DNA of 62,266 bases, taken from Nanobdellota archaeon. Lineage in GTDB: Archaea > Nanobdellota > Nanobdellia > Woesearchaeales > UBA583. The notes below the pieces were generated by a model. That model was not told the DNA's origin and did no database searches. It worked only from the letters and a program-made list of their open reading frames with translations. The DNA lies in assembly GCA_022565615.1 (NCBI GenBank), contig JAIUMM010000005.1, positions 1 to 62,266 of the forward strand, written 5' to 3'. The position numbers and the translations under genes are program-made. Below, piece by piece: positions 5,832 through 30,166 of the stretch (position 1 is its first letter; every line of letters begins with the position of its first letter).

Positions 5832-5948
5832 CATTAAGAGGGGGATTTGAAATCTTACAAAATTTACAATTTTGGGATTTGAGAACGAAGAATGAGTGAC
5901 CACATAATGGTGAGAATTCTACACTTAAGTTTTGAGTGTAACGAAAAA
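5832..5948 (-). repeat. 117-bp tRNA-Ser-associated unit, copy A; ends in a decayed copy of the tRNA 3' end
   Basis: Gap-free alignment with 29903..30019; 85/100 identity over the first 100 aligned nt counted from the tRNA terminal CG. Confidence 0.9.
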
Positions 5949-6031
5949 CGCCAAGGGTGGGATTTGAACCCACGATCCCCTAAGGGACGAGATTAGCAGT
6001 CCCGCGCAATACCAGGCTATGCGACCTTGGC
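5949..6031 (-). tRNA. tRNA-Ser(GCT)
   Basis: Acceptor stem GCCAAGG/CCTTGGC, anticodon loop CT-GCT-AA, long variable arm, T-loop GGTTCAAATCC, discriminator G, CCA not encoded. Confidence 0.95.
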
Positions 6032-6117
6032 AAAAAAAGCCTTATCTACATTGTAGATATATAGTTAACTTTGAATTCATTTAAAAATCTTATGCTACAT
6101 TTTCAAATACAATGAAT

Positions 6118-6125
6118 TTTATAAA
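6118..6125 (+). promoter_or_regulatory. Archaeal TATA box of elp3
   Basis: TTTATAAA 23 nt before the ATG at 6149. Confidence 0.6.
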
Positions 6126-6148
6126 TACAATTTCATTTACTAGTTTAT

Positions 6149-8425
6149 ATGTCACAATCACAAGAAGAATTAAACTCTTTTTATTTTGATTTAATTAATG
6201 AAATTACTTCTATTGAGGATCCAAATCCTACTAAAATTAATACATTGAAAACAAAAATTGCTAAAAAATATAAGGTAAATTCAGTTGTAAAGAATCCTCA
6301 AATTTTAGGGTATGCAAGAGATGACTATCAAAGAGAGCAACTTGTGAAAATTTTTAATACAAAACCTATTAGAGAAGCAAGTGGTGTAACAGTAGTTGCA
6401 CTTTTTGCAATTCCTCATGCTTGTCCTCATGGTAAGTGTATGTATTGTCCTGGAGGTCCAGGTTCTCCTTTTGGAGATACTCCTCAATCCTATACAGGGC
6501 ATGAACCTGCTGCAATGAGAGCTAAAAGAAATATGTATGACCCTTACATGCAAATTTTTAATAGACTTGAGCATTATATTGCAAATGGACATGACCCTGA
6601 TAAATTAGAATTAATTTTTATGGGAGGAACATTTCCAAGTTTATCATTAGAATATAGAGATGAATTTGTAAAATATGTGTATAAAGCGATTAATGATTTT
6701 GGAGATTTATTTTTTGAGATGACACCTGAGGGGAAAAGAATTATTAGGTACGATATTTTTAATGAGTTTTTTGAAATGACTCATCATTTTAATTCACAAG
6801 AGAGACAAATTCGAGTGCAAGAGAAAATGCTTCAAGAGAAATTCAAAAATGATATCTTAACACTTGAAGAGCAAATTGAGAAAAATGAAACTGCAATTAT
6901 TAGAAGTATTGGTTTAACTGTTGAGACTAAACCAGATTGGGCATTAGAGAGTCATTGTAGAGATATGTTAAGATATGGTTGTACACGACTTGAAATTGGG
7001 GTTCAAACATTAAATGAAAATTGTTTAAAAAAAACTAATAGAGGACACACTCTTGAAGAGACAAAGAGATGTTTTCAAATTGCAAAAGATTTATGCTTAA
7101 AAATGAATGCCCATATGATGCTTGGACTTCCTGCGTCAAATTTACAAATTGATGAAGAAGGTTTAGTTGGATTATTTGAAGAAGAAGCATATAGACCAGA
7201 TATGCTTAAAATTTATCCGTGTTTAGTTGTTGATGGAACTCCGTTATATAATATGTATAAATTAGGATTATTTGAGCCAATTACTACTGAGAAAGCAGCA
7301 GAAATAATTGCAAGAAGTTATGCAAAATTCCCTCGATATGTAAGAGTAATGAGAGTTCAGCGTGATATTCCAACTACACTTGTTGAAGGAGGAGTTCAAA
7401 AATCAAATTTACGTCAATATGTAGAAGAGGAGATGAAAAAACTAGGGGTTGAGAGTAAAGATGTTAGAGCAAGAGAAATTGGACTAAGACAATTAGAGGA
7501 GCAAAGAACACAGCATATAAAAAAAGAAATTAAATTACTTGAAAAAATTGAATTTGAATTTAAAAATAGAATAAAACAATTTGAATTTAATTCTTCTTTT
7601 CAAAAATTAAATGTATTTGAATTATTACCTCAAAATACGAATATTTATAGAAATATTGAAGGATTTGTGCGTGATATTAATGCTCTTGAAGAAGTATATA
7701 TTGATAAAATTGATGAAGTTAAAGCAATCTTTGAAAAAAAAATTGAGAATACTAAAAATGAAAAAGTAGTTTCTTCAAATCAGTTTGCTCTTCAAATCAC
7801 AAAAGAATTTACAAAAGAATATTTTAATTCAATGTTAGCTAAATACTATATCACTAATTTTAATGAAAATACTCAATTATTAAATGAATATGTATTATCT
7901 CAAAAATCTCTTCAAATTGTGGAAGAAAATGAGGAAATTGATGAAAAAATTAATGAAGAGTTTAATACTTTAAACCTAAAAATACAATTTTTAAAACAAT
8001 ATACTAAAAAACTAGTTGAATATTTTGAGAGTATTACTCATTTTGCAATTAATGTAGAAGAATTCAATTCAAGTGAAGGAGTAGATATTTTTTTAGATGT
8101 TGTAAATACTGATGACACACTAATAGGATTTACTCGACTTAGATTTCCAAAACAAACAAATTTAACTCCAGAAATTCATGAAAAAACTGCTCTAATTAGG
8201 GAATTACATATCTATGGACAAACTATTCCAGTAGGAGCTCAAGCAAAGGATGAGATAGTACAACACAAAGGATGGGGAAGGAAATTAATATTTAAAGCAG
8301 AAGAAATTGCAAAACAAAGAGGATATACAAAAATGGTAATTATTAGTGGAGTTGGAGTAAGAGAATATTATAAGAAGTTAGGATACCACAAAGAAGGAAC
8401 ATACATGGTAAAAGAGTTATTTTAA
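6149..8425 (+). CDS. elp3: tRNA uridine(34) acetyltransferase Elp3 (radical SAM + GNAT) with a large insertion
   Basis: KPIREASG, CPHGKCMYCPGG, QSYTGHEP, FMGGTF, ETKPD, RVQRDIP, RELHIYG, QHKGWGRKL, ISGVGVREYYKKLGY. Confidence 0.95.
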   Translation: MSQSQEELNSFYFDLINEITSIEDPNPTKINTLKTKIAKKYKVNSVVKNPQILGYARDDYQREQLVKIFNTKPIREASGVTVVALFAIPHACPHGKCMYCPGGPGSPFGDTPQSYTGHEPAAMRAKRNMYDPYMQIFNRLEHYIANGHDPDKLELIFMGGTFPSLSLEYRDEFVKYVYKAINDFGDLFFEMTPEGKRIIRYDIFNEFFEMTHHFNSQERQIRVQEKMLQEKFKNDILTLEEQIEKNETAIIRSIGLTVETKPDWALESHCRDMLRYGCTRLEIGVQTLNENCLKKTNRGHTLEETKRCFQIAKDLCLKMNAHMMLGLPASNLQIDEEGLVGLFEEEAYRPDMLKIYPCLVVDGTPLYNMYKLGLFEPITTEKAAEIIARSYAKFPRYVRVMRVQRDIPTTLVEGGVQKSNLRQYVEEEMKKLGVESKDVRAREIGLRQLEEQRTQHIKKEIKLLEKIEFEFKNRIKQFEFNSSFQKLNVFELLPQNTNIYRNIEGFVRDINALEEVYIDKIDEVKAIFEKKIENTKNEKVVSSNQFALQITKEFTKEYFNSMLAKYYITNFNENTQLLNEYVLSQKSLQIVEENEEIDEKINEEFNTLNLKIQFLKQYTKKLVEYFESITHFAINVEEFNSSEGVDIFLDVVNTDDTLIGFTRLRFPKQTNLTPEIHEKTALIRELHIYGQTIPVGAQAKDEIVQHKGWGRKLIFKAEEIAKQRGYTKMVIISGVGVREYYKKLGYHKEGTYMVKELF

Positions 8426-8436
8426 TTAGTAAAAAG

Positions 8437-8931
8437 ATGGGTTTTCTGTATTGGAGAGAAATTAAGCAAAAAGGAGAAGAGATTTATATTCCTAAAATTA
8501 GAACCTTAAGAGAAAATTCTAGCTCTATACATTCAATAGAACTCTCAAAAAATGGAAAATATCTTCATTCAAATCATGATTTTATATCTCCTCTTCATAG
8601 ATTCCTTCGAAAGTATTGGATAGATGAACTCCCTCAGTTTTATTCTTTATTAAAAGGTGACTTAAAATTAATTGGAGTTAGAGCAAAAGAACCTAAAATT
8701 AATTCTGCTTATACACCTTTTTTTAGAAAAAAATTAGAAGAAGAAGTAAAACACAGTTTAATTGACATTACATACTCATTAGACAAAAGTAGAGACTTGT
8801 CAGATCCTAGAACTCTTGAAGCTTTATATAGATTGTATTTAAGAAAATATAATAATAATTCCTTTAGAACTGATTTAGAGTTTTTGTGTGGATTTGGAAG
8901 AAATATCTTAAAACGAAAATTTAGTGAATAA
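8437..8931 (+). CDS. Bacterial sugar transferase (monotopic phosphoglycosyl transferase) catalytic-domain protein
   Basis: KIRTL and LRKYWIDELPQFYSLLKGDLKLIGVR match the Bac_transf DELPQ...KGDMSLVGPRP signature; no N-terminal membrane helix. Confidence 0.7.
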   Translation: MGFLYWREIKQKGEEIYIPKIRTLRENSSSIHSIELSKNGKYLHSNHDFISPLHRFLRKYWIDELPQFYSLLKGDLKLIGVRAKEPKINSAYTPFFRKKLEEEVKHSLIDITYSLDKSRDLSDPRTLEALYRLYLRKYNNNSFRTDLEFLCGFGRNILKRKFSE

Positions 8932-8941
8932 TTGTATTTAT

Positions 8942-9223
8942 TTATATCATTCCAACTCTTACTAATACAATTAATAATCCAAATGAAACTACAAATACGC
9001 CAATTGTGATGAGAATTGAGAATATTAATTTAGGATTTATTCTATAACTTATAGTTCCAATAATTGATGCAAATGTTAATACTAGAGTCATAATCATAAC
9101 ACCAATTCCAGCAAATGCTTCAATACTTCGTGCATATAACAGTCCAGTTGTGAAAATAATAATTGGAGTTATAAAAATCCAGTTCTTTTCAATGATAGTT
9201 TTAAATGTATTTGTTGTTTTCAT
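8942..9223 (-). CDS. Small membrane protein (about 3 TM)
   Basis: 93 aa with three hydrophobic segments. Confidence 0.6.
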   Translation of the reverse strand: MKTTNTFKTIIEKNWIFITPIIIFTTGLLYARSIEAFAGIGVMIMTLVLTFASIIGTISYRINPKLIFSILITIGVFVVSFGLLIVLVRVGMI

Positions 9224-9379
9224 TTTTATAAGTAAGTTTTTTTTAAAATTTCTATAACTAAGTTATTACAAGTATGATTCTAATGTTTATAAACCTATTT
9301 ACACCAGAATTTTTTTAAAAAATAAATCATTGAATATTTCTAATTAAGTTTAAATATCTCTAAGTATTATAGTATATAG

Positions 9380-10486
9380 ATGTTTAAATATATGAAGAAA
9401 AATTCAAAGAAATTTGGAACTCCTCCTGGTACACTTATTTATACTGGTGAGAGTAAAAAATTATCTTATACTATTTCATTGATATCATATAATGTAGAAA
9501 ATTTTAAGAGCAGTTCTTATTCTAATTTTGATGATTTTGAAAATTATTTTAGCAAGTTTAAAAATGTTAATGACAATAAGCAAGAACATTCAAAATCAAA
9601 TGGTATTAACTGGATTCAAGTAGAGGGAATTTCAAATATTGATTTAATTCAAAATCTAGGAACATTTGCCTCAATTCATCAACTAAATCTTGAAGATATT
9701 GTAAGTGTTAATCAAAGACCTAAATTTGAAGAGGGAGAAGATTATGTGTTATGTATTCTTCAAATACCTCATTACAATGAAGATGAAAAAATAATTTCAT
9801 ATTCTCAATTAAGTTTAATTTTAAAAAATTCATTAGTGATTTCTTTTGAGGAGAGTAAAAATATCTATACTAAAACTATTAAAGAGAGAATTGAATTGAA
9901 AAAAGGAAGAGTTAGGAGTATGAACTCAGATTATTTATTTTATGTTCTAATTGATATTATATTTGATGGATATTTTAAAGTTATAGATATTTTAAATGAA
10001 AAACTTGAAGTATTGGAGGAGGAATTAATTACAAATCCTACAAAATCTACATTAAATGAATTATATAAACTTAGAAGAGAAATTTTATTTTTAAGAAAAT
10101 TATCTTGGTCAAATAAAGAATTAGTAAGTAACATATACCACTTAGATTCAAAATTATTTAGTAAAAAATTAAAACCTTTCTTAAAAGATGTTTATGATCA
10201 TAGTGTTCAAATTTTAGATTTAATTGAAACTAAAAGAGAACTTATTTCAACAATGCTTGATTTATATCAATCAAGTTTAGCAAATAAAACTAATGAAGTT
10301 ATGAAAGTTTTGACAATGTTTGCATCAATATTTATACCTTTAACTTTTATTGCAGGAATTTATGGAATGAATTTTGAGTATATGCCTGAACTTGCCTGGA
10401 AGTTTGGATATTTTGGAGTTTGGGGAATATTTATTATAGTTTCAGTTAGTTTAATTGTTTATTTTAAACGTAAAAATTGGATTTAA
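9380..10486 (+). CDS. corA: Magnesium/cobalt transporter CorA
   Basis: GTPPGTLIYTG N-terminus, QRPKFE, YGMNFEYMPEL signature, two C-terminal TM helices. Confidence 0.95.
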   Translation: MFKYMKKNSKKFGTPPGTLIYTGESKKLSYTISLISYNVENFKSSSYSNFDDFENYFSKFKNVNDNKQEHSKSNGINWIQVEGISNIDLIQNLGTFASIHQLNLEDIVSVNQRPKFEEGEDYVLCILQIPHYNEDEKIISYSQLSLILKNSLVISFEESKNIYTKTIKERIELKKGRVRSMNSDYLFYVLIDIIFDGYFKVIDILNEKLEVLEEELITNPTKSTLNELYKLRREILFLRKLSWSNKELVSNIYHLDSKLFSKKLKPFLKDVYDHSVQILDLIETKRELISTMLDLYQSSLANKTNEVMKVLTMFASIFIPLTFIAGIYGMNFEYMPELAWKFGYFGVWGIFIIVSVSLIVYFKRKNWI

Positions 10487-10568
10487 TTTTTTTAAATTTA
10501 CATATTTAAATAATAAATTTATAATTTACCTATTAAAATTATATTTTATAAGATATTTAAAAATTAGA

Positions 10569-11885
10569 TTAAATTAAAACTACAATTAATAATAATATAT
10601 AGCTTATTAATAGTCCTAAAAAATAGATACTTGCAATTTTAAATAATTTGAATCCTCCTAAAAACCATGTGAGTAATGCTTTAATTATTGTATTTGAAAT
10701 TACTGCTAAACTAATTGTCATAATTGCTGCAAATTCACTTATTGTTCCATTTCTAAATAATTGAGCAGTTGAGAGAGTTATTGCATCAACATCTACAAGT
10801 CCACTTAATACTGCTGTTATATATAATCCCATATCTGAGAAGTAATGTAAACTAATGTTTGAAACTATAATTATTGATGTGAATAATATTCCAAATATTA
10901 AAGCGGGTCTAATTCTAAAAGGTGATTTTAAGTTAGTATGTTTTTCTAGATTTGCTCTATAATTGTGAAATGTAAAATATACAATTCCAATTCCTACAAA
11001 TGGTGTTATAAGAAGAGGTATTGCCATAATTAGAGCTAAATTAGGAGCAATTATTAATATTTCAACAAATACTCTAAAAAACATAATTGATGATGCTAAA
11101 ATGATTCCTCCTGCAAATAAATAATTTAATCTTTCATTAGTTTTTGAAGAGATTGAAAATGAAGTTGTAAGTGCTGTTGATGATACTAAACCTCCTAATA
11201 ATCCTGTTAAAAAGAGTCCTTTTTTTTCACCAAGTATTTTCATTGTTACATAACTGGTAAAACTAAGTGCTGAGATTACTACTACTAAAGACCAAATAAT
11301 AAATGGGTTTAAATTTGAAATGGTACTTAGTGCTTCAATAAAGTGTTCTGGTAAAAATGAACTGATGTATTTAATTTGAGTTAAATCATAAGATTTGTTT
11401 GGTAAAATTGGAAGTAAAATTGCACTAATACATATAAAAAGTAGAGTTGAGTGTATTTCTTCTCTTGAAATATTTTTTGAAAAATTATGAAGATGAGGAG
11501 TTGTGTAGAGAAGAATTGATATGAAGACTGCAATAAATACTGCAATGTATGTAGCTCCACTTCCAATTAAAAGTCCACAAATAAATGAAATTACAATTAA
11601 TATTTCATATAAAAATGAATTTTCAAAAATATTTAATCGTTTAGTTTTTGCTATATTTTCGTGCATTACAAAGAGAATAATACTTGCAAATATTGCATAG
11701 ACTATATATGTCATTGAGAATTGAGTAAATAATACTGCACTAAGAGTTCCTAGAAGTGCAACTATAATGTGTGTTCTAATTCCAGGTGTAAAGAGTCTTT
11801 TTTCATTTCTCTCAACTTGAACTCCAATTAATCCTCCAAGAGCTGATGAAATAATAAATAATAGAAGTAGTTCAATTTCACTCAT
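10569..11885 (-). CDS. MgtC/SapB family membrane protein with a DUF4010-type C-terminal domain
   Basis: GGLIGVQVER...PGIRTH N-terminus, GGLVSSTALT and SGLVDVDAIT motifs, many TM helices. Confidence 0.85.
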   Translation of the reverse strand: MSEIELLLLFIISSALGGLIGVQVERNEKRLFTPGIRTHIIVALLGTLSAVLFTQFSMTYIVYAIFASIILFVMHENIAKTKRLNIFENSFLYEILIVISFICGLLIGSGATYIAVFIAVFISILLYTTPHLHNFSKNISREEIHSTLLFICISAILLPILPNKSYDLTQIKYISSFLPEHFIEALSTISNLNPFIIWSLVVVISALSFTSYVTMKILGEKKGLFLTGLLGGLVSSTALTTSFSISSKTNERLNYLFAGGIILASSIMFFRVFVEILIIAPNLALIMAIPLLITPFVGIGIVYFTFHNYRANLEKHTNLKSPFRIRPALIFGILFTSIIIVSNISLHYFSDMGLYITAVLSGLVDVDAITLSTAQLFRNGTISEFAAIMTISLAVISNTIIKALLTWFLGGFKLFKIASIYFLGLLISYILLLIVVLI

Positions 11886-11996
11886 AATATGTATATTTTA
11901 AATATTTTATTTTAAATAAAAATGTAATTGTGAAGGAGGAGTTAAGAGGAATAGAATTATAGCTACATTTAAATATTGATTTTTATTATTTAAAAT

Positions 11997-12836
11997 ATGT
12001 CACAAGAATTTGTTGAAAATCATAAAAGAATTATTTATAATTCAAATACTCCAAATGCTATTTTAATGGAGAGTGTATTTGCACTGATGAATGAGGGTTC
12101 ATATGAAGCAAAGGAAGTATTATTTGATATTGCAAGAAATCATAAGTGTGAGTTAATTAGGCATGAGACTATTTTTGCAATTGGAGAAATTGGGCCAGAT
12201 AAGGATATACGAGATTTTTTAAAAGAAACATTAAATGTTGATAATTCCATTGTAGTGCAACATGAAGCGTTAGTTGTGCTTGGACTTTTAGGAGTTGAAG
12301 AAGACAAAGAGTTTTTAGAGCAATTTTTAGAAGATGAAAGAATTGAAATTTCACAAAGTGCTAAGGTAGGAATTCAGAGAATTGAGCAAACATTTGATTT
12401 TTACAATGAAGTCCTGAAAAGTGAAGAGAGTGAGAGAGAATTTAGGGAAAAATTGCAAGACACATTAAATGTATGTGAAAATGATAGAATTCAAATTATG
12501 TTTCAATTAATGAAGCATGATACTTCTAAGAATGCACAAGCAATTTATCAAAGATTTACACAAGATCCTTGTCCAATTGTAAGACATGAAGCTGCGTTTT
12601 GTTTAGGAGAGATGAAAAGTGATGAAGCGTATTCTTGTTTATCAAAAGGAGTTTTTGAACAAGAGTATCCTATTGCAATTCATGAAGCACTATTTGCACT
12701 TGGAACAACTGGAAGAGAAGAAGCACTTGAAGTATTAAATCAATTTATTAATGATGAAAATTATATCATCTCACAAAGTGCAGTGATTGGAAAGGAGAAG
12801 ATAGAACTTGTTAAAAATCCATATCGTGGTGTCTAA
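11997..12836 (+). CDS. HEAT-repeat protein with deoxyhypusine hydroxylase (DOHH)-like architecture
   Basis: Two-fold internal repeat with four HE motifs at H56-E57, H89-E90, H197-E198, H229-E230 (codons at 12162, 12261, 12585, 12681). Confidence 0.7.
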   Translation: MSQEFVENHKRIIYNSNTPNAILMESVFALMNEGSYEAKEVLFDIARNHKCELIRHETIFAIGEIGPDKDIRDFLKETLNVDNSIVVQHEALVVLGLLGVEEDKEFLEQFLEDERIEISQSAKVGIQRIEQTFDFYNEVLKSEESEREFREKLQDTLNVCENDRIQIMFQLMKHDTSKNAQAIYQRFTQDPCPIVRHEAAFCLGEMKSDEAYSCLSKGVFEQEYPIAIHEALFALGTTGREEALEVLNQFINDENYIISQSAVIGKEKIELVKNPYRGV

Positions 12837-12875
12837 GTTGCTTTGCAACTTGAATAGTTTTTTTTAAGTCATACA

Positions 12876-13454: not shown

Positions 13455-13515
13455 ATTTAAAATGTCTAACTATTAAAAATTTATTTATAATACTCCTACA
13501 AATTTTTTAAAGGAG

Positions 13516-13523: not shown

Positions 13524-13545
13524 GGATTATCTCTAAGTAATAGAT

Positions 13546-22471: not shown

Positions 22472-22516
22472 TTTTAATATTAAGTTAATTCAAAGGACAT
22501 ATATAACTTTTTGTTA

Positions 22517-22882: not shown

Positions 22883-22912
22883 AATTACTATATAGTTTTA
22901 AAATTTAAATAA

Positions 22913-23485
22913 TTATGTTTTTAAAGTTCTCTTCTTCCAACATCCTTGAAAATGGTCATCAATTACACCAACTGCTTGTAAATAAGAGTATATTATTACA
23001 CTACCTACAAACTTCATTCCTCTTTTTTGTAAATCTTTTGAAATCATATCGGACAATTCACTTCTTGAAGGGACCTCATCAATAAACTCCCAATTGTTTA
23101 CAACTTGTGTATTATTTACAAATCCCCATAAATACGTAGAGAAACTTCCAAATTCTTTTTGAATTTGAATAAATATTTGAGCATTTGTAATTGCATATTT
23201 GATTTTTAATCTATTTTTTACAATTCCTGAATCTTGACATAATTCTTCAAATTTATGTGTGTCATATTTAGCAATTTTTTTATAATTAAAATTATCAAAT
23301 GCTTTTCTATACCCTTCACGTTTATTTAAAATTAATTCCCAACTGAGTCCTGCGTGAGCTGACTCTAAAAGAAGCATTTCAAATAATTTTGTATCATCAT
23401 CATAAATAGGAACTCCCCACTCTTTATCATGGTATTTTGAATACATTTTACTATGAGATCCAAAACAACGAACTTTTTTATCCAT
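22913..23485 (-). CDS. tag: DNA-3-methyladenine glycosylase I
   Basis: RC...YHDKEWGVP, LFEMLLLES, AGLSWELIL, RGMKFVG, GVIDDH...C. Confidence 0.95.
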   Translation of the reverse strand: MDKKVRCFGSHSKMYSKYHDKEWGVPIYDDDTKLFEMLLLESAHAGLSWELILNKREGYRKAFDNFNYKKIAKYDTHKFEELCQDSGIVKNRLKIKYAITNAQIFIQIQKEFGSFSTYLWGFVNNTQVVNNWEFIDEVPSRSELSDMISKDLQKRGMKFVGSVIIYSYLQAVGVIDDHFQGCWKKRTLKT

Positions 23486-23632
23486 ACTATAATTATGAAT
23501 TATCTATTTAAAAACAATTTGAAATAATATTTATAAGTAATTATAAATATTTTAAGATGTTTTTTTAATTGACAATTAAAAGTATAATTAAAATTAAAAC
23601 TAGAAGAGAGAAAAGAAAATTCTATAAAAATT

Positions 23633-24586
23633 CTATAAAATTAATAATGTTGCAATATAAAAATAAATTAAAACACTTAGTATATCTTGAATAATTGTTG
23701 TAAAAGGTCCACTTCCAATTGCTGGGTCTTTATCTAATTTCATAAGTATAAATGGAATAAGTAATGCAAATACTGTTGCTAGAATAATTGAGCAAAATAC
23801 AGCAAGACCTACAATAACACCTAGTAACTGTGAATCCCAAATTATTGATGAAATTATCATAATAACTATCCAACATGCAATTGCAATTAAAAATGAAATT
23901 AATATTTGTTTAATACTATATTTTAACATTGGGACTTCATTATGAATAGCTAAACTACGAATGTATAGTGTTTGAGTCTGTGAACCTACTGCATTTGCAA
24001 TATATGCAACTAGTGGAATAAATGCTGCAATCATTAATTCTTCTTGCAAAACACTCTCAAAACTTCCAATAATTTGTGCTGCAAAAAGACCACCTATAAG
24101 ACCCACAATAATCCATGGTACTCTAAGTGTAAAATTTTTCCAAATTGAGAGGTCTTTAATTTTATCAACATATTCAGGGTTAATTCCTTCTAGATATAAG
24201 AAATCCTCTTGGTTTTCCTTATAAAGAATATGAAGAATAGTTTCACTTTTAACTACTCCAATTAATTTATTTTTTTTATTAACAATAGGTACTGATTTAA
24301 TATTATTATTTATTGCTAAATATGCGATTTTTTCGGGGTCAGTATGTTTGTGAGCTTTAACTATTTTTTTAATACTATGATCTTTTATAAGAGAATCTGA
24401 AGTAATACTAAACATTTCATGACTTGAGATTACTCCCTCTAAAGTTTCATCTTTATTTAATACATAGATATAGTCAATAGTGTCATAATCTCTTATCTTG
24501 TCAAATAAATATTTTTTAATATCACTAATTTTTTCATTTGAATAACAAATAGGGATATTTTTAGAAATTTTTAACTTTTTTTGCAT
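23633..24586 (-). CDS. mgtE: Magnesium transporter MgtE (CBS pair plus membrane domain, short form)
   Basis: CBS-like N-terminus, RVPWIIVGL, GSQTQT, DPAIGSGPFTTIIQD. Confidence 0.85.
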   Translation of the reverse strand: MQKKLKISKNIPICYSNEKISDIKKYLFDKIRDYDTIDYIYVLNKDETLEGVISSHEMFSITSDSLIKDHSIKKIVKAHKHTDPEKIAYLAINNNIKSVPIVNKKNKLIGVVKSETILHILYKENQEDFLYLEGINPEYVDKIKDLSIWKNFTLRVPWIIVGLIGGLFAAQIIGSFESVLQEELMIAAFIPLVAYIANAVGSQTQTLYIRSLAIHNEVPMLKYSIKQILISFLIAIACWIVIMIISSIIWDSQLLGVIVGLAVFCSIILATVFALLIPFILMKLDKDPAIGSGPFTTIIQDILSVLIYFYIATLLIL

Positions 24587-24776
24587 TCTTTATTTGAAAA
24601 AATAACTATTGTATATAAACATTATTAACTTTGAAAATAATTAAATATTTATATTTTTTAAAAAACATACTCAATTTGAATATTAATTATTAATTTAAAT
24701 TAAACTAAGATTTAAAAAGAACTATTTTTTATCTTTACTATATAAGAATTTTAATTATTCTACTATGTTATAAAAA

Positions 24777-25901
24777 ATGGCTAATGAAGTATTACAAGCA
24801 AAAATTGAAGAACTCGAGTTAGAGCTTAAAAATACTAAAGTTAATAAAAGAACTGAAGCAGCTGTTGGTCAATTAAAAGGTAAAATTGCTAAATTAAAAG
24901 AAGAACTTGAAGCAAAATCAGGAGGAGGAAGTAGAGGAGAAGGATTTGCAGTAAAAAAAGAAGGGGATGCAACAGTTGGACTTTTAGGAAAACCAAGTGT
25001 TGGAAAATCTACTCTTCTTGGAAAAGTAACTAATAAAGAGAGTAAAATTGGAGCGTACGAGTTTACAACTCTTGATTGTGTGCCTGGACTTTTACACTTT
25101 AAACATACAAATTTACAAATTTTAGACTTACCAGGAATTATTGATAAAGCAGCTGACAATAGAGGATTTGGAAAAAAAGTATTAAGTGTTGTAAGAGCAT
25201 GTGATTTAGTTGTGTTAGTAATTGATGCAAGAAGACCTATTGAAGATATAGAGATGTTATTAAGAGAAACTGAAAATTCACAAATTAAATTTAATCAAGA
25301 TCCTCCAAATATTCAAGTGAGAAGAATGTCACATGGGGCAGTAAATATTCCTCTTAATAATTCTTCAGACAATTTACCAAATGAAATGGTTGCAGAAGTT
25401 TTAAAGGGAATGGGATATGTTAATGCAGAAGTAATTATTCATGAAAAAGATGCAACAGTTGATGATGTTATTGAAGCATGTTATTCTAATATTGTGTATA
25501 AAAAAGCAGTATTGTGTATAAATAAAATTGATTTGTTTTCAGTTGAAGAATTGAAGAAGATAAGAGATGAGATTCAAGAGAAATATCCTCAGTTTGAATT
25601 ATTTGGAATTTCAGCAGAAGCAGAAGTTAATATTGAAAAATTTAAAGATTTTATTTGGGATCAGTTAGGATTTATGTGGGTGTATTTAAAAGAACAAAGA
25701 AAAGATCCAGATTTAGAAAAACCTTTAGTTGTCCATCAAGGAGATACTATTAAAGATGTGTGTGAGAAAATACATAAAGACTTACTTAAAAAATTTAGAT
25801 ATGCTAAAATTAAAGGGAGAAGTGCTAAATTTGATTGGCAAAGAGTAGGACTTGAACATAAAGTGGAGGATAGAGATATAGTTGAAATCTATGCTAGATA
25901 G
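24777..25901 (+). CDS. drg: DRG-family (OBG superfamily) GTPase with TGS domain
   Basis: GKPSVGKST, YEFTTL, DLPGII, NKID, C-terminal TGS (QRVGLEHKVEDRDIVEI). Confidence 0.9.
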   Translation: MANEVLQAKIEELELELKNTKVNKRTEAAVGQLKGKIAKLKEELEAKSGGGSRGEGFAVKKEGDATVGLLGKPSVGKSTLLGKVTNKESKIGAYEFTTLDCVPGLLHFKHTNLQILDLPGIIDKAADNRGFGKKVLSVVRACDLVVLVIDARRPIEDIEMLLRETENSQIKFNQDPPNIQVRRMSHGAVNIPLNNSSDNLPNEMVAEVLKGMGYVNAEVIIHEKDATVDDVIEACYSNIVYKKAVLCINKIDLFSVEELKKIRDEIQEKYPQFELFGISAEAEVNIEKFKDFIWDQLGFMWVYLKEQRKDPDLEKPLVVHQGDTIKDVCEKIHKDLLKKFRYAKIKGRSAKFDWQRVGLEHKVEDRDIVEIYAR

Positions 25902-25909
25902 ATTTCAAC
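25881..25909. other. Perfect 12-bp inverted repeat spanning the drg stop codon
   Basis: GTTGAAATCTAT-gctag-ATAGATTTCAAC. Confidence 0.85.
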
Positions 25910-25950
25910 AGACAAGAACGCATGAAGTAAGTGTCTCGTATAGTTGAAAT
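25902..25950. repeat. 49-bp repeat, copy 1 (TTTCAAC...GTTGAAA ends)
   Basis: 41/49 identical to 26014..26062. Confidence 0.85.
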
Positions 25951-26013
25951 ATACGCTCGTTGAGCACCGTATGCTCAAAAATAGAATATTTTTGTTATTT
26001 GTCCTAGAGATAA

Positions 26014-26062
26014 GTTTCAACAGAAAATAACACATAGAGTAAGTGTTTTGTATAGTTGAAAT
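26014..26062. repeat. 49-bp repeat, copy 2
   Basis: 41/49 identical to 25902..25950; 63 bp lie between the copies. Confidence 0.85.
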
Positions 26063-26199
26063 CTATATTTAATAAAACGTATAATTCTCGAAAATTTTTG
26101 ATTTTTATTGTTTCTACCATAAGAAAAAATTAAATAATAATATATTTATTTAATAGAGATATCCGTTTATACATTGAAATTTATTTAGTGTATAGTCGG

Positions 26200-27114
26200 G
26201 TAGCATATGCTACTAGTTAAAAATTATATATTTTTATTGAATCTATGGAGATTCACAAACTAAGAATAGAATTTTTAAGATTAAAATGTAAATACTCTTA
26301 TTCAAAGAGTCAAATATTGATGAAAGAAAAATTTGATAGATATATACATATTTCTACATTGAAACGTTGGTATAAACGTTTTTCGAAAGAATAAAATTGG
26401 GACTTTAGATTTATCTCTAAAATCCCAAATAAGATTTATTACAAAGTTACTCAAGAATTAGAAGCTCAAATCGTTAGTTTTCGTAAGAAAACTGGATATG
26501 GAGCTTTAAAAATCAAACAATGTTTAAATCTTGATATTCATCAAGATACTGTTAATCAGGTTCTTAAAAGAAATAATCTTACTAGGATTGAGCATAATCG
26601 TTCATCTCGTGCTAAATATGTTCGTTTTGAACGTAAACATGCTAATTCTCTTTGGCATATTGATTATAGTGAATTTGGTAAAGAAGGTAAAATTATAGCA
26701 GTTTTTGATGATGCAACTCGATATTGTCTTGGAATTTTACATGTAAGAACTGTTACAACTCTTGTTGTAATTCAATTTTTAGATGAATTAATACAAATAT
26801 TTGAAATTCCAACTCAAATTATTAGTGATAATGGAAGTCCATATGGACTTAAAAGTAAATATTCCAAATTTGATATTTGGTGTAGAAGAAGAGGCATTGA
26901 GCATATTAGAATAAGAGTTAAAAGACCTCAGACAAATGGTAAAGTTGAGAGATTATTTGGTTCAATTTATAAAGAAATTGAATTTTGTAATAATGATTTA
27001 GAACAATTTAGAATGAGATATAATCATTTTAGACCTCATCATAGTTTAAAAAATAAAACTCCAGCAGAAGAATTTTACAATTTTCAAAGAAAATTGAGAT
27101 GATGACATATGTCA
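26200..27114 (+). mobile_element. IS481-family insertion sequence, defective
   Basis: DDE transposase frame flanked by palindromes GTAGCATATGCTAC (26200-26213) and TGACATATGTCA (27103-27114). The element ends are inferred. Confidence 0.7.
26245..27102 (+). pseudogene. IS481-family (rve/DDE) transposase with a premature stop; not in the ORF track
   Basis: My translation: MEIHKLR...STLKRWYKRFSKE*NWDF...RFERKHANSLWHIDY...DDATRY...ISDNGSPY...PQTNGKVER...YNHFRPHHSLKNKTPAE...LR*; in-frame TAA at 26392-26394. Confidence 0.9.
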
Positions 27115-27163
27115 CCTGCTTTCACATATATATTTTTTTATAGATAAATTTAAATAAGAAATA

Positions 27164-28381
27164 ATGAGTTTATTTAATATGAATTTTAATTTAATTTTAC
27201 TTAAATCTGATAATATGTTTATTGGAATTAATTTTTTACTATATTTAGTTATCTCATCTATTATTTCATTTTTATCTATATACTTAAATTCATTTGGTTT
27301 AAGTGAGTCAGAGATAAGTTTTTTATTTATGATTTCAAATTTCATAACTTTATTTTTATTTATTATATTTCCAATAGTAATTATATTTTTTAATATTTAT
27401 AAAATATTTTTAGTTTCATTACTTGTATTTATAAGTAGTTTATTTTTGTTTCTTCAAAATAACTTAATTATAATATATTTTTCTTTATTCATATTTTTAA
27501 TTGGGAGAGTTTTAAGTAGAAATTCTTCAACATTAATTTTTAAAAATTTAGTTAATAGTTTTGATTTTAGTAAAATTCAAGGTTTATATTTTGTTTTTAT
27601 TAATTTATCGTGGATAATTTCTCCAGTTTTATTTGGTTTTATAATTAATTTATATGGGATAAATTTAATGTTTATTATATCAATTTTAATAATTATAATT
27701 TGTACTTTTTTGTTCACTTTAAATTTCAAATCTAAAATGATTACTGTCTCTGAGAATACTTTAAATATGAAAAATTTTAAAGAAATTGATTTGAATTTTT
27801 TTAAAATTGTAATACAAAAAAATTTTTTATTAATTTATATGACTTCTTTAGGTCCTTATATTTGGTTTATATTAACTTATGTATATATGCCTTTATTTAT
27901 TGTATTTAACTTTGAAGAGGTTTATTACGTTGGTTTATATATAGCCTTAATCAATATACTAAATTTAATTACTTCATATTATTTGATAAAATTTATTTCA
28001 TTCTTTTCAATAAAAAAATTATATGTATTAGGATATTTTTTCTCTTTTATAGGAACATTTTCTATATTTTTTATAAATCCTTTTTATACAATATTGATTA
28101 CTCTTATTATAAATATATTTGTAGGAGTTTTAGAACCTATTAATGAAATTATTTTTTTCAAATTATTTTCAGGAAATAATGCTAACCTATCATATTCAAT
28201 TTATAATTCCAGTTCAGAGGTTAGCAGTATAATTACTTTACTTTTAATTGGTTTAATATTAACTATTACTGAATTTTTTAATATAATATTCATTATAATT
28301 TCATTATTATTTTTTTTACTTTTTATATTAAGTCTAAAAATACCTTTATTATATGGCGATAATTCAACTAAAATTAGTTAA
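27164..28381 (+). CDS. MFS-type transporter (about 12 TM), extremely AT-rich
   Basis: 405 aa of alternating hydrophobic helices; YLNSFGLSESEIS and SWIISPVLFGFI resemble MFS motifs. Confidence 0.7.
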   Translation: MSLFNMNFNLILLKSDNMFIGINFLLYLVISSIISFLSIYLNSFGLSESEISFLFMISNFITLFLFIIFPIVIIFFNIYKIFLVSLLVFISSLFLFLQNNLIIIYFSLFIFLIGRVLSRNSSTLIFKNLVNSFDFSKIQGLYFVFINLSWIISPVLFGFIINLYGINLMFIISILIIIICTFLFTLNFKSKMITVSENTLNMKNFKEIDLNFFKIVIQKNFLLIYMTSLGPYIWFILTYVYMPLFIVFNFEEVYYVGLYIALINILNLITSYYLIKFISFFSIKKLYVLGYFFSFIGTFSIFFINPFYTILITLIINIFVGVLEPINEIIFFKLFSGNNANLSYSIYNSSSEVSSIITLLLIGLILTITEFFNIIFIIISLLFFLLFILSLKIPLLYGDNSTKIS

Positions 28382-28402
28382 TATTATTTTAAAAAATTAG
28401 AA

Positions 28403-28966
28403 TTAATTTTCTTCTAATGCTAGAAGTCTTTCATACTCTTCTTCTACTAAATTAGCCATTTGAATTCCAGTTGAACTTGCATCTCCAAAACCAATTAAGT
28501 AATTATCTCCAACTACAGTAATAGGAGTTCCAATTCTCTCATTAGCTAAACCTGTTGTTGTTTCAATTGCTTCTTGTAGAGCTTCTTGACCAGCTGGTGT
28601 TCTAATATTGTGAATTACGATTTGTAAATAGGGGTATGTAGCTAAAATATTTGGATTAAATTCACTTTGTCTAATACAATGAGGACACGTTGGGTCGTGA
28701 AATTGATGCATTACTACAACTGGTCCTTCATAGCCTGCAGCAGGTCCTAAACCTGTACTTTCTCCTTCTCCTTGATTTAATACTAGAACTAATATCACAA
28801 GTAGTATTACTGCTGCAATAATGATTGGAATATTATTTTTTAGTATTTTAACTAAACCTCCTGATTTTTTAAGTTCATCTCTTCTTTCTTTTTTAGATTT
28901 AACTTCATTTTCATGATTATTTACATGAGTTGAAGAATCTTTTTTTTTAATCTTAGATTTAACCAT
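28403..28966 (-). CDS. Membrane-anchored thioredoxin/glutaredoxin-fold protein
   Basis: Single TM helix, CPHC redox motif, GTPITVVGD cis-Pro loop. Confidence 0.75.
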   Translation of the reverse strand: MVKSKIKKKDSSTHVNNHENEVKSKKERRDELKKSGGLVKILKNNIPIIIAAVILLVILVLVLNQGEGESTGLGPAAGYEGPVVVMHQFHDPTCPHCIRQSEFNPNILATYPYLQIVIHNIRTPAGQEALQEAIETTTGLANERIGTPITVVGDNYLIGFGDASSTGIQMANLVEEEYERLLALEEN

Positions 28967-29002
28967 CTTGATATTTATTTAATATTTTCTACATTTAAAA
29001 AA

Positions 29003-29632
29003 CTATTGTATGTATTTGTGAAGTGAATCTTTAAGTACAATGTGATGTTTTAGACATCTGCAAGAATATCCTTCTTTTTCATCACCTATTAAAATTATTG
29101 GTGAATTGTAATGAGCGGGTTTTGAATTAATTTCTCTTTGTGTTCGAGTTGCTTTTCTATTACAACCTTCAAATTCACAAATTCCACTAAGTTTAGTGAT
29201 ATAATTTGCTCTACTTAGTAAATCTCCCATTGGTCCAAATGTTTCTCCTCTAAAATCTAAATCTAATCCTGCACAAATTATATACACTTCTTTTTTTAAT
29301 AACTCATCGATTTGAGAAATTATTTTCAAATCAAAAAATTGACATTCATCAATAATTACAACATCATGAAAGTTATTTTTAAAAAATTCATTACTCAATT
29401 CAGGATTCTTAGCATTAAGTAATTTAAATTCTACACCACTTAGATTTAAATTTGAACGGGTATCAATTTTTCTAGTGTCAATATCAGGTTTTATTGCTAA
29501 AATTGAAATATTTGTCATATAACTTAGAGTGTCTAATATTCTCATAATTTCTCTACTTTTACCTGATTTCATAGGTCCACAAATTACATGAAGTTCTCCA
29601 GGTAATATGTGAGAGTGTTGATGTGAATTCAT
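29003..29632 (-). CDS. tdk: Thymidine kinase
   Basis: GPMKSGKS, IDECQFF, GLDLDFRGETFG, Cys zinc ligands. Confidence 0.95.
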   Translation of the reverse strand: MNSHQHSHILPGELHVICGPMKSGKSREIMRILDTLSYMTNISILAIKPDIDTRKIDTRSNLNLSGVEFKLLNAKNPELSNEFFKNNFHDVVIIDECQFFDLKIISQIDELLKKEVYIICAGLDLDFRGETFGPMGDLLSRANYITKLSGICEFEGCNRKATRTQREINSKPAHYNSPIILIGDEKEGYSCRCLKHHIVLKDSLHKYIQ

Positions 29633-29819
29633 TATATGTAATATTATATCTTAGTATTTAAAAATTATTTGTTTAAAAAATTGCAATTAAAAAAAGATGT
29701 TTAAGTAAATAGTTGACTATTTAGCAAAATAATATAATAAACACAAAGCTTTTTAAAGTGTTTAAAATTAATCTTAATTGATAGCATTTTAACTATTATT
29801 AGTATTGATTTAATAATTT

Positions 29820-29902
29820 GCCAAGATCGCATAACTCGGTATTGCGCTTGACTTGAAATCAAGTTCCACATGGAATTCTGGGTTCAAATCCCAGTCTTGG
29901 CG
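29820..29902 (+). tRNA. tRNA-Ser(TGA)
   Basis: Acceptor stem GCCAAGA/TCTTGGC, anticodon arm CTTGA-CT-TGA-AA-TCAAG, long variable arm, GGTTCAAATCC, discriminator G, CCA not encoded. Confidence 0.95.
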
Positions 29903-30019
29903 TTTTTCGTTTCACTCAAAACTTAATTCTGAAATTTTCACCATTATGTGGTCACTCATTCTTCGTTCTCACATCCGAAAATCAAAGATTTTCTAGGACT
30001 TCAAATCCCTGTCTTGGCG
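29903..30019 (+). repeat. 117-bp tRNA-Ser-associated unit, copy B
   Basis: Colinear with 5832..5948; 30000-30021 repeats 29883-29904 (tRNA 3' end plus 2 flanking nt) at 21/22. Confidence 0.9.
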
Positions 30020-30109
30020 TTATATATTTTTCATCTTAGATTTTCTGCGTTACATTTTTATGATTTGAACGAAGTTCCTTTGGTGCAAAAAATTTTTAAT
30101 TTTTCAGCA

Positions 30110-30166
30110 CAAATCCTAAGTATTGGCGTTTTTTGTTTCACTCAAAACTTAATTCTGAAATTCTCA
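30110..30166 (+). repeat. Partial third copy: tRNA 3' end plus the start of the 117-bp unit
   Basis: CAAATCCTAAGTATTGGCGTTTTTTGTTTCACTCAAAACTTAATTCTGAAATTCTCA closely matches 29885-29940. Confidence 0.85.

What the first reader, a model, noticed from the sequence alone, without database searches (positions are those of the whole stretch)
5832..30166. The same 117-bp unit, ending in a copy of the tRNA 3' end, follows two different tRNA-Ser genes
Seen: the DNA after tRNA-Ser(GCT) (5948 down to 5832) and after tRNA-Ser(TGA) (29903-30019) aligns without gaps at 85/100, with a 30-nt perfect core CCATTATGTGGTCACTCATTCTTCGTTCTC. At both loci the T-loop sequence TTCAAATCCC recurs exactly 117 bp downstream (21/22 identity over the duplicated end at the TGA locus, more decayed at the GCT locus). 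A partial third copy lies at 30110-30166. Established: integrative elements duplicate tRNA 3' ends, and the E. coli tyrT locus carries tandem repeats containing the tRNA 3' end. Inference: a miniature non-autonomous element that targets tRNA-Ser, or a co-transcribed small RNA or processing signal. No integrase is present in the window.
Basis: partly seen in the sequence, partly recalled or inferred. Interest (0 to 1): 0.7.

Follow-up and report, generated by a model that had tools for sequence, protein, structure and literature searches.

The report
tRNA-end-bounded cassette arrays behind archaeal tRNAs
The repeated 117-bp unit is real and is one member of a family of short, gene-less, hairpin-rich DNA cassettes, each closed by a copy of the last ~20 bases of the tRNA, that stack up behind tRNA-Ser (and tRNA-His) genes in a small group of soda-lake Woesearchaeota, most likely as footprints of integrase-type recombination into the tRNA's T-loop.

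Summary

The window is a DPANN archaeon (Woesearchaeota), not a bacterium. Independent assemblies of four or more relatives carry the same unit ("A") behind tRNA-Ser(GCT), (TGA) and (GGA). They also carry two unrelated modules ("B", "C"). B also follows tRNA-His and there ends in the tRNA-His 3' end.

One relative has five copies of the tRNA end separating four modules. Module number and order differ between close relatives.

In one near relative the slot behind tRNA-Ser(GCT) holds an SSV-type integrase whose reading frame starts inside the tRNA T-arm.

My best reading (about 0.5) is serial site-specific integration at the tRNA T-loop/3' end. It left ORF-less cassettes that were later reshuffled by deletion and by exchange through the invariant core.

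Against a recent jump, the copies look old and constrained. A 43-nt block is invariant while neutral sites are only about 60% identical. A host-level RNA or DNA function therefore stays open. No transcription data exist. I rate it a new variant of a known kind, of moderate interest.

The parts
5949..6031 (-). tRNA-Ser(GCT), archaeal type, no encoded CCA. Its last 20 nt (5949-5968, TTCAAATCCCACCCTTGGCG) are the repeated 'att' segment.
5911..5948 (-). Module A, part 'a' (38 nt). It holds a T5 run, the invariant CACTCAAAACTTAA, then an 11-12-nt patch that differs by isoacceptor locus.
5881..5910 (-). Module A core, identical to 29941-29970. It lies within a 43-nt block that is invariant in 6 copies from 4 genomes.
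5852..5880 (-). Module A, part 'c', variant c1. It contains the 7-bp hairpin CAAAATT-GTA-AATTTTG (5858-5874).
5832..5851 (-). Decayed copy of the tRNA T-loop-to-3' end (TTCAAATCCCCCTCTTAATG), 117 bp after the tRNA's own copy.
29820..29902 (+). tRNA-Ser(TGA). Its last 20 nt (29883-29902, TTCAAATCCCAGTCTTGGCG) are the repeated 'att' segment.
29903..29999 (+). Module A. Part a is 29903-29940, the core is 29941-29970 and part c2 is 29971-29999. c2 holds the hairpin GAAAATC-AAA-GATTTTC at 29977-29993.
30000..30019 (+). Second copy of the tRNA T-loop-to-3' end (TTCAAATCCCTGTCTTGGCG, 1 mismatch).
30020..30110 (+). Module B, unrelated to A. It has an AT-rich left part and the motif GATTTGAAC-GAA-GTTCC. 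It ends in the bulged hairpin GTGCAAAAAAT...ATTTTTCAGCAC (30083-30110).
30111..30128 (+). Third, decayed copy of the tRNA end (AAATCCTAAGTATTGGCG, with a 1-nt insertion). It is orthologous to the most distal copy in relatives.
30129..30166 (+). a' is a partial A consisting of part 'a' only. It leads into the upstream region of the GSDH lipoprotein gene (30208-31314). The same a'-GSDH junction follows a tRNA-Ser(GCT) array in relative L012.

Best explanation
The unit is a cassette: module A (97 nt) plus a copy of the last 20 nt of the tRNA. It belongs to arrays of short (about 75-245 nt), ORF-less, hairpin-rich cassettes. These lie head-to-tail behind tRNA genes in a narrow clade of haloalkaline Woesearchaeota.

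Proposed mechanism:
- A tyrosine (SSV-type) integrase recombines DNA carrying a matching attP with the T-loop-to-3'-end segment of the tRNA gene.
- The incoming DNA supplies a new tRNA 3' end. The old one is pushed downstream as a direct repeat.
- Repeated events stack cassettes, with the newest next to the tRNA.
- What remains of each event is only the pair of arms next to the att site. These are either relics after internal deletion or true attP-only mini-elements moved in trans.
- The arrays are then remodelled by deletions that fuse neighbouring modules.
- They are also remodelled by homologous exchange between the inversely oriented tRNA-Ser loci through the invariant core.

Shown:
- The repeat anatomy.
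- The heterologous modules.
- The variation between relatives.
- An integrase in the same slot in a near relative.

Inferred:
- That an integrase made these particular cassettes.
- The order of events.
- Why the core is conserved. My suggestion is a recombinase or accessory-protein binding site.
For: (1) Each module ends in a copy of the tRNA segment from T54/C56 to the discriminator base, in direct orientation. The window has 3 copies at the TGA locus and 2 at the GCT locus. L025 has 5 copies bounding 4 modules, and three of those copies are identical to the tRNA's own 20 nt.

(2) Modules A, B and C are unrelated to each other in sequence, so simple tandem duplication cannot build the arrays.

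(3) Module B behind tRNA-His ends in the tRNA-His 3' end, not the tRNA-Ser one. The junction lies in the shared T-loop CAAATCC.

(4) The content of the slot differs between near relatives:
- window: A, B, a'
- L025: A, B, C, B-long, a'
- L026: a C/A hybrid, a'
- L012: A, a'
- L002: B, an A/C hybrid, b'

(5) In L013/L021 (ELP3 85% identical, tRNA 98.8% identical, flanks syntenic) the slot holds a 343-aa PF16795 integrase. Its ORF starts inside the tRNA T-arm and has no in-frame Met for about 130 codons. It matches the SSV1 integrase structures 3VCF, 4DKS and 3UXU at E = 6e-13. Homologous integrases sit at tRNA-Ser(GCT) in other metagenome contigs of unnamed origin.

(6) In L012 the distal copy at the GCT locus is of TGA type, and a'-GSDH is shared with the window's TGA locus. 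This shows exchange between loci through the core.

(7) In L025 an inverted copy of the right half of A abuts a T-loop-like sequence inside B-long (57 nt, 86% complementary).

(8) There is precedent for tandem arrays bounded by 20-bp copies of a tRNA-like 3' end, with insertion in the T-loop, in the Dehalococcoides ssrA islands (PMC3146451). There is also precedent for SSV-type integrases carrying att inside their own gene in archaea (PMC8371274).
Against: - No integrase is present in the window.
- No detectable similarity links module A to the integrase genes found in relatives.
- None of the modules occurs in 2.9 million viral contigs or in the JGI metagenome collection. No donor element is therefore known.
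- No circular or excised form and no clean empty/filled pair within one strain was seen. The hint is ambiguous.
- The copies look old. The two A copies in this genome are the least similar pair (81/96), while the orthologous pair window-L025 is 90/96. Part 'a' tracks the isoacceptor locus.
- Relics would not be expected to keep a 43-nt block invariant while 4-fold sites are only 57-66% identical. That points to a function the relic model does not itself supply.
- 'a' and the flank a' are near-identical. This fits a local duplication as well as it fits an attP that included the trailer.
Confidence: 0.5

Rival explanations
1. Host-functional element. Module A (and perhaps B and C) would be a conserved 3' trailer of tRNA-Ser genes, acting as RNA or as a DNA site. 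As RNA it could be a co-transcribed small RNA, or a processing, stability or termination signal. The terminal tRNA-end mimic could give it a tRNA-like 3' end for RNase Z or the CCA enzyme. As DNA it could bind a regulator.
For: - Conservation is far above neutral. A is 85-94% identical between genomes whose GSDH 4-fold sites are 57-66% identical, and a 43-nt block is invariant in 6 copies.
- The hairpin in part c keeps pairing through two double changes between variants c1 and c2.
- The first hairpin of C also keeps pairing across variants.
- A sits behind all three tRNA-Ser isoacceptors seen.
- Orthologous copies are more alike than copies within one genome.
- A stem that uses G-U pairs (CUAGGAC / GUCUUGG around the T-loop copy) is possible only on the tRNA strand.
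Against: - A T5 run, the archaeal termination signal, follows the tRNA directly (established knowledge of archaeal termination).
- Folding energy on the tRNA strand is ordinary (z = -0.06).
- There is no Rfam family, even at E <= 10.
- There are no canonical C/D boxes (by reading the sequence).
- There is no complementarity to the cognate tRNA beyond shuffles.
- There is no conserved ORF.
- L026 has lost the left half of A at its TGA locus. Part of A also occurs inverted inside another module. Both are hard to fit with a strand-specific trailer function.
- There are no RNA data either way.
Confidence: 0.22
2. Purely local duplication with no mobile element. Unequal crossing-over or slippage behind the tRNA would generate repeats that contain the tRNA 3' end, as proposed for the 178-bp repeats of E. 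coli tyrT. Gene conversion would then spread the result between tRNA-Ser loci.
For: - att-a-core-c-att-a' is formally 1.6 copies of a 117-bp period.
- 'a' and a' are 36/38 identical in the window.
- Exchange between loci is evident.
Against: - The arrays contain three mutually unrelated modules between the tRNA-end copies.
- Module B occurs with a tRNA-His end behind tRNA-His.
- Duplicates always start in the T-loop and stop at the discriminator base. Random unequal exchange would not do that.
- There is no Rfam rtT match.
Confidence: 0.12
3. Transposition with a long target-site duplication. A casposase- or Cas1-like or other transposase would make staggered cuts at the T-loop and at the tRNA 3' end. 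It would insert a MITE-like module and duplicate the 17-22 nt between the cuts.
For: - It explains without target switching why B carries the end of whichever tRNA it follows.
- B is bounded by imperfect inverted T-arm halves, CTAGGATTTG...CAAATCCCAG.
- Casposons are known to target tRNA 3' ends with TSDs of about 14-15 bp (my own knowledge).
Against: - No transposase or Cas1 was seen in the window or in any fetched relative locus.
- A and C have no terminal inverted repeats.
- At GCT loci the distal copy is not of GCT type, which a TSD made in place would be.
- The inverted A piece in L025 has no second target copy on its other side.
Confidence: 0.08

Closest known systems
Dehalococcoides ssrA-specific genomic islands (McMurdie et al. 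2011, PMC3146451)
   Same: Tandem arrays lie downstream of a tRNA-like gene. Each unit is bounded by a ~20-bp direct repeat of the gene's 3' end. The inferred insertion point is in the T-loop. Short motifs directly upstream of each repeat are conserved. The number of units varies between strains. Some units lack integration genes and were proposed to be cis-mobilizable.
   Different: Those units are kilobase-scale islands with cargo genes and a serine recombinase (DsiB). Here the units are 75-245 bp with no ORF. The organism is an archaeon. Several tRNA genes are used. The only recombinase seen nearby is SSV-type and sits in a relative, not in this genome.
Integrated archaeal elements with SSV-type ('suicidal') integrases: SSV1, pTN3, pT26-2 (review PMC8371274)
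   Same: The tRNA gene is the attachment site, and part of the tRNA is repeated at the far end. The att sequence lies inside the integrase reading frame, as in L013/L021, where the ORF starts in the T-arm. Homologous recombination between integrated copies in opposite orientation rearranges the chromosome. Class II tRNAs, including Ser(TGA) and Ser(GCT), are known targets.
   Different: The known cases are 5-40-kb viruses or plasmids with int(N) and int(C) halves at the two borders. Here there are no int fragments. The sequence before the tRNA-end copy has no start codon in the L021 frame, and the module shows no conserved ORF and no similarity to the integrase gene. Several cassettes are stacked within a few hundred bp.
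Cis-mobilizable elements (CIMEs) and accretion arrays of streptococcal ICEs (as cited in PMC3146451 and PMC5704250)
   Same: DNA segments flanked by attL and attR lack their own recombination genes. They are thought to derive from integrative elements, lie in tandem with three or more att sites, and could be moved by an integrase supplied in trans.
   Different: CIMEs are kilobases long, bacterial, and shown experimentally to be mobilised. Here the segments are about 100-bp cassettes and mobility is not demonstrated.
E. coli tyrT 178-bp repeats / rtT RNA (Rfam RF00391)
   Same: Repeats directly behind a tRNA gene each contain the tRNA's 3' terminal segment, and a small RNA has been reported from them.
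   Different: The tyrT repeats are copies of a single unit in one locus of a bacterium and include CCA. There is no Rfam match here. The modules here are heterologous and are shared by different tRNA genes.
Integron cassette arrays
   Same: Short units are captured one after another at a fixed site. Each is delimited by a structured (hairpin-forming) recombination site. The integrase acts in trans. Arrays differ between strains.
   Different: Integron cassettes carry ORFs and attC sites. The integrase (IntI) is encoded next to attI. Integrons are bacterial. No defining feature of an integron was met here.

Membership tests
Integrase-generated att repeats at a tRNA gene (integrated element, or a relic of one) | A direct repeat of a 3' segment of the tRNA gene lies downstream of an intact tRNA, in the same orientation. 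| tested here: met
   2-5 copies per locus, always in direct orientation, running from T54/C56 to the discriminator base
Integrase-generated att repeats at a tRNA gene (integrated element, or a relic of one) | A site-specific recombinase gene lies inside or next to the repeat-bounded segment. | tested here: not met
   None in the window. One is present in the same slot only in relative L013/L021.
Integrase-generated att repeats at a tRNA gene (integrated element, or a relic of one) | The slot is occupied in some close relatives and empty in others. | tested here: inconclusive
   The content of the slot differs among relatives. tRNA-His and tRNA-Ser(GGA) without modules are seen only on short contigs of more divergent organisms. 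The possible empty/filled pair in the source sample is ambiguous.
Integrase-generated att repeats at a tRNA gene (integrated element, or a relic of one) | An excised circular form or attP junction exists. | not testable with these tools
   Only assembled contigs are available for the DNA runs, and they show no joints. The RNA runs have no reads.
SSV-type ('suicidal') integrative element | int(N) and int(C) gene halves flank the element, and the att sequence is translated in frame. | tested here: not met
   No int-like sequence in the window. Module A is not similar to the integrase 5' region. No conserved ORF runs through the modules. The feature is met only for int(C) in L021.
tyrT-type rtT repeats | Tandem copies of one unit behind the tRNA, matching the Rfam rtT model. 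| tested here: not met
   No Rfam hit. The modules are heterologous.
MITE or transposon with target-site duplication | Terminal inverted repeats, and a target duplication made in place (the flanking copies are of the local sequence). | tested here: not met
   A and C lack TIRs. The distal copy at the L012 GCT locus is of TGA type. Only B has weak inverted ends.
Archaeal box C/D guide RNA | C (RUGAUGA) and D (CUGA) boxes flanking a guide of 10 nt or more that is complementary to a target RNA. | tested here: not met
   No conserved C/D boxes on either strand (by reading). No snoRNA-type Rfam hit near threshold. No complementarity to the cognate tRNA beyond shuffles.
Split or intron-bearing archaeal tRNA (BHB-dependent) | The tRNA gene is incomplete without the distant piece, and exon-intron junctions form a bulge-helix-bulge. 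| tested here: not met
   Both tRNA genes are complete and score 53-58 bits without any extra piece. The downstream copies have no matching 5' acceptor strand (by reading).
Integron | An intI gene next to an attI site, with cassettes made of an ORF plus attC. | tested here: not met
   No integrase in the window and no ORFs in the modules.

The most novel reading that the evidence does not exclude
These arrays may be a live, integron-like capture platform in DPANN archaea. In this reading, tiny ORF-less cassettes (essentially attP arms that fold into hairpins) are inserted, excised and shuffled at tRNA T-loops by an integrase supplied in trans. The cassettes or the spare tRNA-end copies would serve the host. 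They could act as structured small RNAs released from the tRNA transcript. Alternatively they could act as decoy landing pads that keep 'suicidal' integrases away from the functional tRNA.
Probability: 0.12. Interest if true: 0.75.

Novelty: new variant of a known kind. Interest (0 to 1): 0.5.

Why it matters
tRNA genes are the classic landing sites of integrative elements. What is normally seen is a kilobase-scale island with one spare tRNA end. Here the same signature is repeated up to five times within 650 bp, around cassettes too small to encode anything, in an archaeal lineage whose mobile elements are almost unknown.

If the cassettes are relics, they give a compact record of successive integration events and a set of candidate att arms for finding Woesearchaeota viruses or plasmids.

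If they are active or host-functional, they would be the smallest integrase-dependent mobile units described, or a new tRNA-linked RNA class.

The inverted copies 24 kb apart also mark a probable chromosomal rearrangement hot spot. They are a practical hazard for assembly, because several relatives' contigs break exactly in the core.

Tried and rejected
Collection scans
- The exact-word scan of species-representative genomes with a 20-mer of the core gave only one real relative, MAG JBLKOJ01 (L002, L003). L001 is a chance hit.
- The JGI metagenome scan with a degenerate core gave only GC-rich chance hits.
- Four viral-contig scans (core, B hairpin, c2, part 'a') gave only chance hits.
- The viral-contig search with the relative's integrase found nothing.

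RNA evidence
- Three metatranscriptomes of the same umbrella study gave zero reads on the loci.

Ideas tested and dropped
- Module A as a decayed integrase fragment, int(N) or the start of int(C). Local alignments are no better than shuffles. The frame used by the L021 integrase has no start codon in A. No ORF is conserved across copies. The 88-codon open frame through the window's TGA array stops early in L025.
- The variable patch in A as a guide for the cognate tRNA. Duplex energies are within the shuffle range.
- C/D-box RNA, split tRNA, a T-loop intron or a tRNA-like minihelix. No boxes, no 5' acceptor strand, and no Rfam support.
- A simple single inversion between the two loci as the whole story. 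L012 fits it, but L026 carries the c1 variant next to a'-GSDH, so exchanges were multiple.

Not meaningful
- The bacterial promoter/terminator scan was not used because the organism is archaeal.
- The other six TTCAAATCC words in the window lie inside coding sequence with no further tRNA likeness.

Full report
**1. The observation**

ARAGORN and Rfam find two tRNA genes in the window:
- tRNA-Ser(GCT) on the minus strand, body 5949-6031.
- tRNA-Ser(TGA) on the plus strand, body 29820-29902.

- The 117 nt that follow each gene align without gaps at 97/117.
- The 30-nt core occurs exactly twice, against 0.00 expected.
- The segment from the T-loop to the discriminator base recurs with a start-to-start spacing of exactly 117 at both loci. 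Identity is 21/22 at TGA and 76% of 25 nt at GCT.
- A third piece at 30111-30166 consists of a decayed tRNA end followed by the first 38 nt of the unit.
- The motif CAAATCC-N2-5-TCTTRR occurs three times against 0.11 expected.

The source sample's own contigs reproduce the region, with breaks in the repeated core. Independent assemblies of relatives show the same design, so it is not an artefact.

**2. What organism**

A 20-mer of the core hit only one real genome among 185,579 species representatives. That genome is a Candidatus Woesearchaeota MAG, JBLKOJ01.

The window is about 27% G+C. It encodes an archaeal/eukaryal-type Elp3, RFC and similar proteins. The closest named homologues of its proteins are Woesearchaeota or Nanoarchaeota MAG proteins. 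The DNA runs that hold it are labelled bioreactor and soda-lake metagenomes.

The feature therefore has to be read in archaeal terms. tRNA genes lack an encoded CCA, oligo-T acts as the terminator, and SSV-type integrases are the relevant recombinases.

**3. Anatomy of the unit (module A)**

I aligned six full copies from four genomes. They are window GCT, window TGA, L012 GCT, L003 GGA, L002 and L025 TGA. The alignment divides A into three parts.

- Part 'a' (38 nt) has a T5 run, the invariant CACTCAAAACTTAA, and then an 11-12-nt patch. The patch is alike at the same isoacceptor locus in different genomes and differs between loci.
- The core sits within a 43-nt block that is invariant in all six copies.
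- Part 'c' (29 nt) comes in two variants. Each forms a 7-bp hairpin: c2 is GAAAATC-AAA-GATTTTC and c1 is CAAAATT-GTA-AATTTTG. They differ by two compensatory pairs.

After A comes the copy of the tRNA end. In L003 that copy is decayed almost beyond recognition, but it is followed by the start of module B, as it is elsewhere.

**4. The unit is one of several cassettes in arrays**

Relatives were fetched through the flanking Elp3 and GSDH genes. The copies of the tRNA end are tabulated.

| Locus | Order of elements behind the tRNA |
|---|---|
| Window, TGA | tRNA, A, end, B, end, a', GSDH |
| Window, GCT | tRNA, A, decayed end, PLD-like gene |
| L025 (GSDH 74% identical) | tRNA-Ser(TGA), A, end, B, end, C, end, B-long, decayed end, a', GSDH |
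| L026 | TK, tRNA-Ser(TGA), hybrid (left of C + right of A, c1 type), end, a', GSDH |
| L012 | Elp3, tRNA-Ser(GCT), A, end (TGA type), a', GSDH |
| L002 | (contig edge) end, B, end, hybrid (A + right of C), end, b', GSDH |
| L003 | tRNA-His, B, copy of the tRNA-His 3' end, then tRNA-Ser(GGA), A |

In L025 there are five copies of the tRNA end, and three are identical to the tRNA's own 20 nt.

A, B and C share nothing but the terminal tRNA-end copy. All are rich in short hairpins. The hairpin in part c of A and the first hairpin of C keep their pairing across variants.

The copy starts at T54 after A and C and at C56 after B. It always stops at the discriminator base.

A more distant relative, L030 (GSDH 67% identical), has no tRNA or array next to GSDH. 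Short soda-lake contigs show related tRNA-His and tRNA-Ser(GGA) genes with unrelated sequence behind them. They also show a B(His) variant that lacks a 53-nt internal block.

**5. Link to integrases**

L013/L021 is a near relative. Its Elp3 is 85% identical, its tRNA-Ser(GCT) is 98.8% identical, and genes on both sides are syntenic. In this relative the slot behind the tRNA holds an integrase, a GDSL lipase and a NUDIX protein, in place of A plus the PLD-like gene.

The integrase has these properties:
- It belongs to PF16795.
- It matches the SSV1 integrase catalytic-domain structures 3VCF, 4DKS and 3UXU at E = 6e-13.
- Its open frame begins inside the T-arm (GTG GGT TCA AAT CCC ...).
- It has no in-frame Met for about 130 codons.

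This is the hallmark of SSV-type integrases, which carry att within their own gene (PMC8371274).

Homologues at 68-73% identity sit at tRNA-Ser(GCT) in other metagenome contigs whose organisms are not named. There a displaced 5' tRNA fragment lies upstream, an arrangement like the pTN3 type (PMC8371274).

So the 3' flank of tRNA-Ser is a proven integration slot in this lineage. The segment duplicated in the arrays is the segment read through by the L021 integrase.

However, several expected links are missing:
- The window has no integrase.
- A shows no similarity to the integrase genes.
- No second att copy bounds the L021 insert within 10 kb.
- No donor element with A, B or C was found in any collection.

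**6. Exchange between loci**

In L012 the array behind tRNA-Ser(GCT) has a GCT/GGA-type 'a'. After the core it continues with c2, a TGA-type tRNA end and the a'-GSDH junction. In the window that junction belongs to the TGA locus.

The two window loci are inverted relative to each other and 24 kb apart. Recombination within the invariant core would invert the segment between them, and L012 is what one product would look like. L026 shows c1 next to a'-GSDH, so more than one exchange has happened.

Hybrid modules are explained by simple deletions spanning a tRNA-end copy.

**7. Age and constraint**

GSDH 4-fold degenerate sites are 57-66% identical between these genomes. The intergenic DNA upstream of the tRNA is about 58-71% identical, apart from a promoter-like block.

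Module A is 85-94% identical between genomes, and its 43-nt block is invariant. The two copies within the window are the least similar pair (81/96). The orthologous pair window-L025 is 90/96.

This argues against a recent burst of transposition. It argues for long residence under constraint. The constraint could act at the element level, as a recombinase or accessory binding site. It could also act at the host level.

**8. Tests of the RNA idea**

- No Rfam family other than tRNA matches, even at E <= 10.
- On the tRNA strand the unit folds no better than shuffles (z = -0.06). The opposite strand gives z = -2.3.
- There are no conserved C/D boxes.
- There is no complementarity to the cognate tRNA beyond chance.
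- There is no conserved ORF.
- Three metatranscriptomes contain no reads from the organism.

The idea is therefore untested rather than refuted. The compensatory changes in the hairpins are equally compatible with DNA-level palindromes.

**9. Conclusion**

The best-supported account is serial site-specific recombination into the T-loop/3' end of tRNA genes. It left stacks of tiny cassettes that were later remodelled by deletion and by homologous exchange.

The closest described systems are:
- the Dehalococcoides ssrA island arrays, with 20-bp repeats of the 3' end and T-loop insertion (PMC3146451);
- cis-mobilizable elements;
- archaeal SSV-type integrated elements (PMC8371274).

The differences are the miniature size, the absence of any gene, the use of several tRNA genes, and the strong conservation of cassette cores.

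I rate it a new variant of a known kind. Confidence in the mechanism is about 0.5, and a host-functional RNA or DNA element is the main rival.

Noticed in passing
window 6149-8425 (+): The Elp3 homologue is 758 aa, whereas most relatives are about 575-585 aa and align to only about 59% of it. The extra length appears to fall in two places: between the ELP3_N and radical-SAM matches, and between Radical_SAM_C and the GNAT domain. No intein or other Pfam domain was detected there. A close relative (P0002, 768 aa) shares the long form, while P0003 (85% identical over the shared part) is short.
   Followed up: partly
window about 55,630-62,266 (+): A single open frame of more than 2,211 codons runs off the 3' end of the window, so it is not in the ORF list. 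It starts with a hydrophobic, signal-like N-terminus and is probably a giant surface protein.
   Followed up: partly
L016 5620-5800; L019 60-225: In other metagenome contigs (organisms not named), SSV-type integrase ORFs read through a complete tRNA-Ser(GCT). A displaced 5' tRNA fragment ending in the anticodon loop lies about 30 nt upstream. This resembles pTN3-like integration into the 5' half of a tRNA. The cargo includes McrBC and a UvrD/PD-(D/E)XK helicase-nuclease.
   Followed up: partly
L003 5062-5114; L025 3740-3900; L002 about 4900-4960: A motif of the form GAACGA(A/T)C...(G)TGAGTG(T/A)C(TC) recurs inside long versions of module B. It is the reverse complement of part of the A core (GTCACTCATTCTTCGTTC). 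In one soda-lake contig the 53-nt block that carries it is absent from B(His). It may be a separate small insertion or a shared protein-binding site.
   Followed up: partly
window 29633-29818; L025 3156-3266; L026 996-1178: A conserved block, ACAAAGCTTTTTAAA(G/C)NGTT(T/C)AAA(A/G)TTAAT, lies about 55-70 nt upstream of tRNA-Ser(TGA). A similar TTTTTAAA motif lies upstream of tRNA-Ser(GCT). It is probably the tRNA promoter (TATA/BRE) and would imply a fairly long leader.
   Followed up: no
window 16787, 17098, 17679, 18055, 45599, 58942: The 9-mer TTCAAATCC occurs 10 times in the window against 1.5 expected. The six copies away from the tRNA loci lie inside coding sequence and have no further tRNA likeness. 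This is probably a codon or composition effect.
   Followed up: yes
Logan contigs of runs X1 and X2, laid on L003 5115-5300 and window 5947-5979: In the window's own source sample, a tRNA-Ser(GGA) 3' end is joined directly to the flank TTCAATTATAAA. A B-type hairpin plus a GGA-type tRNA end is joined to the same flank, at similar depth. This could be an empty/filled polymorphism. It could equally be a repeat longer than the assembler's word size. It was not resolvable from contigs.
   Followed up: partly
window 4130-5731 (-) versus L021 10001-12271: The gene content directly behind the tRNA-Ser(GCT) array differs between near relatives. The window has a PLD-like protein there. L021 has an integrase, a GDSL lipase and a NUDIX protein. 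The next genes (a 133-aa ORF and an SMC-like ATPase) are syntenic. The PLD-like gene may therefore itself be island cargo.
   Followed up: partly
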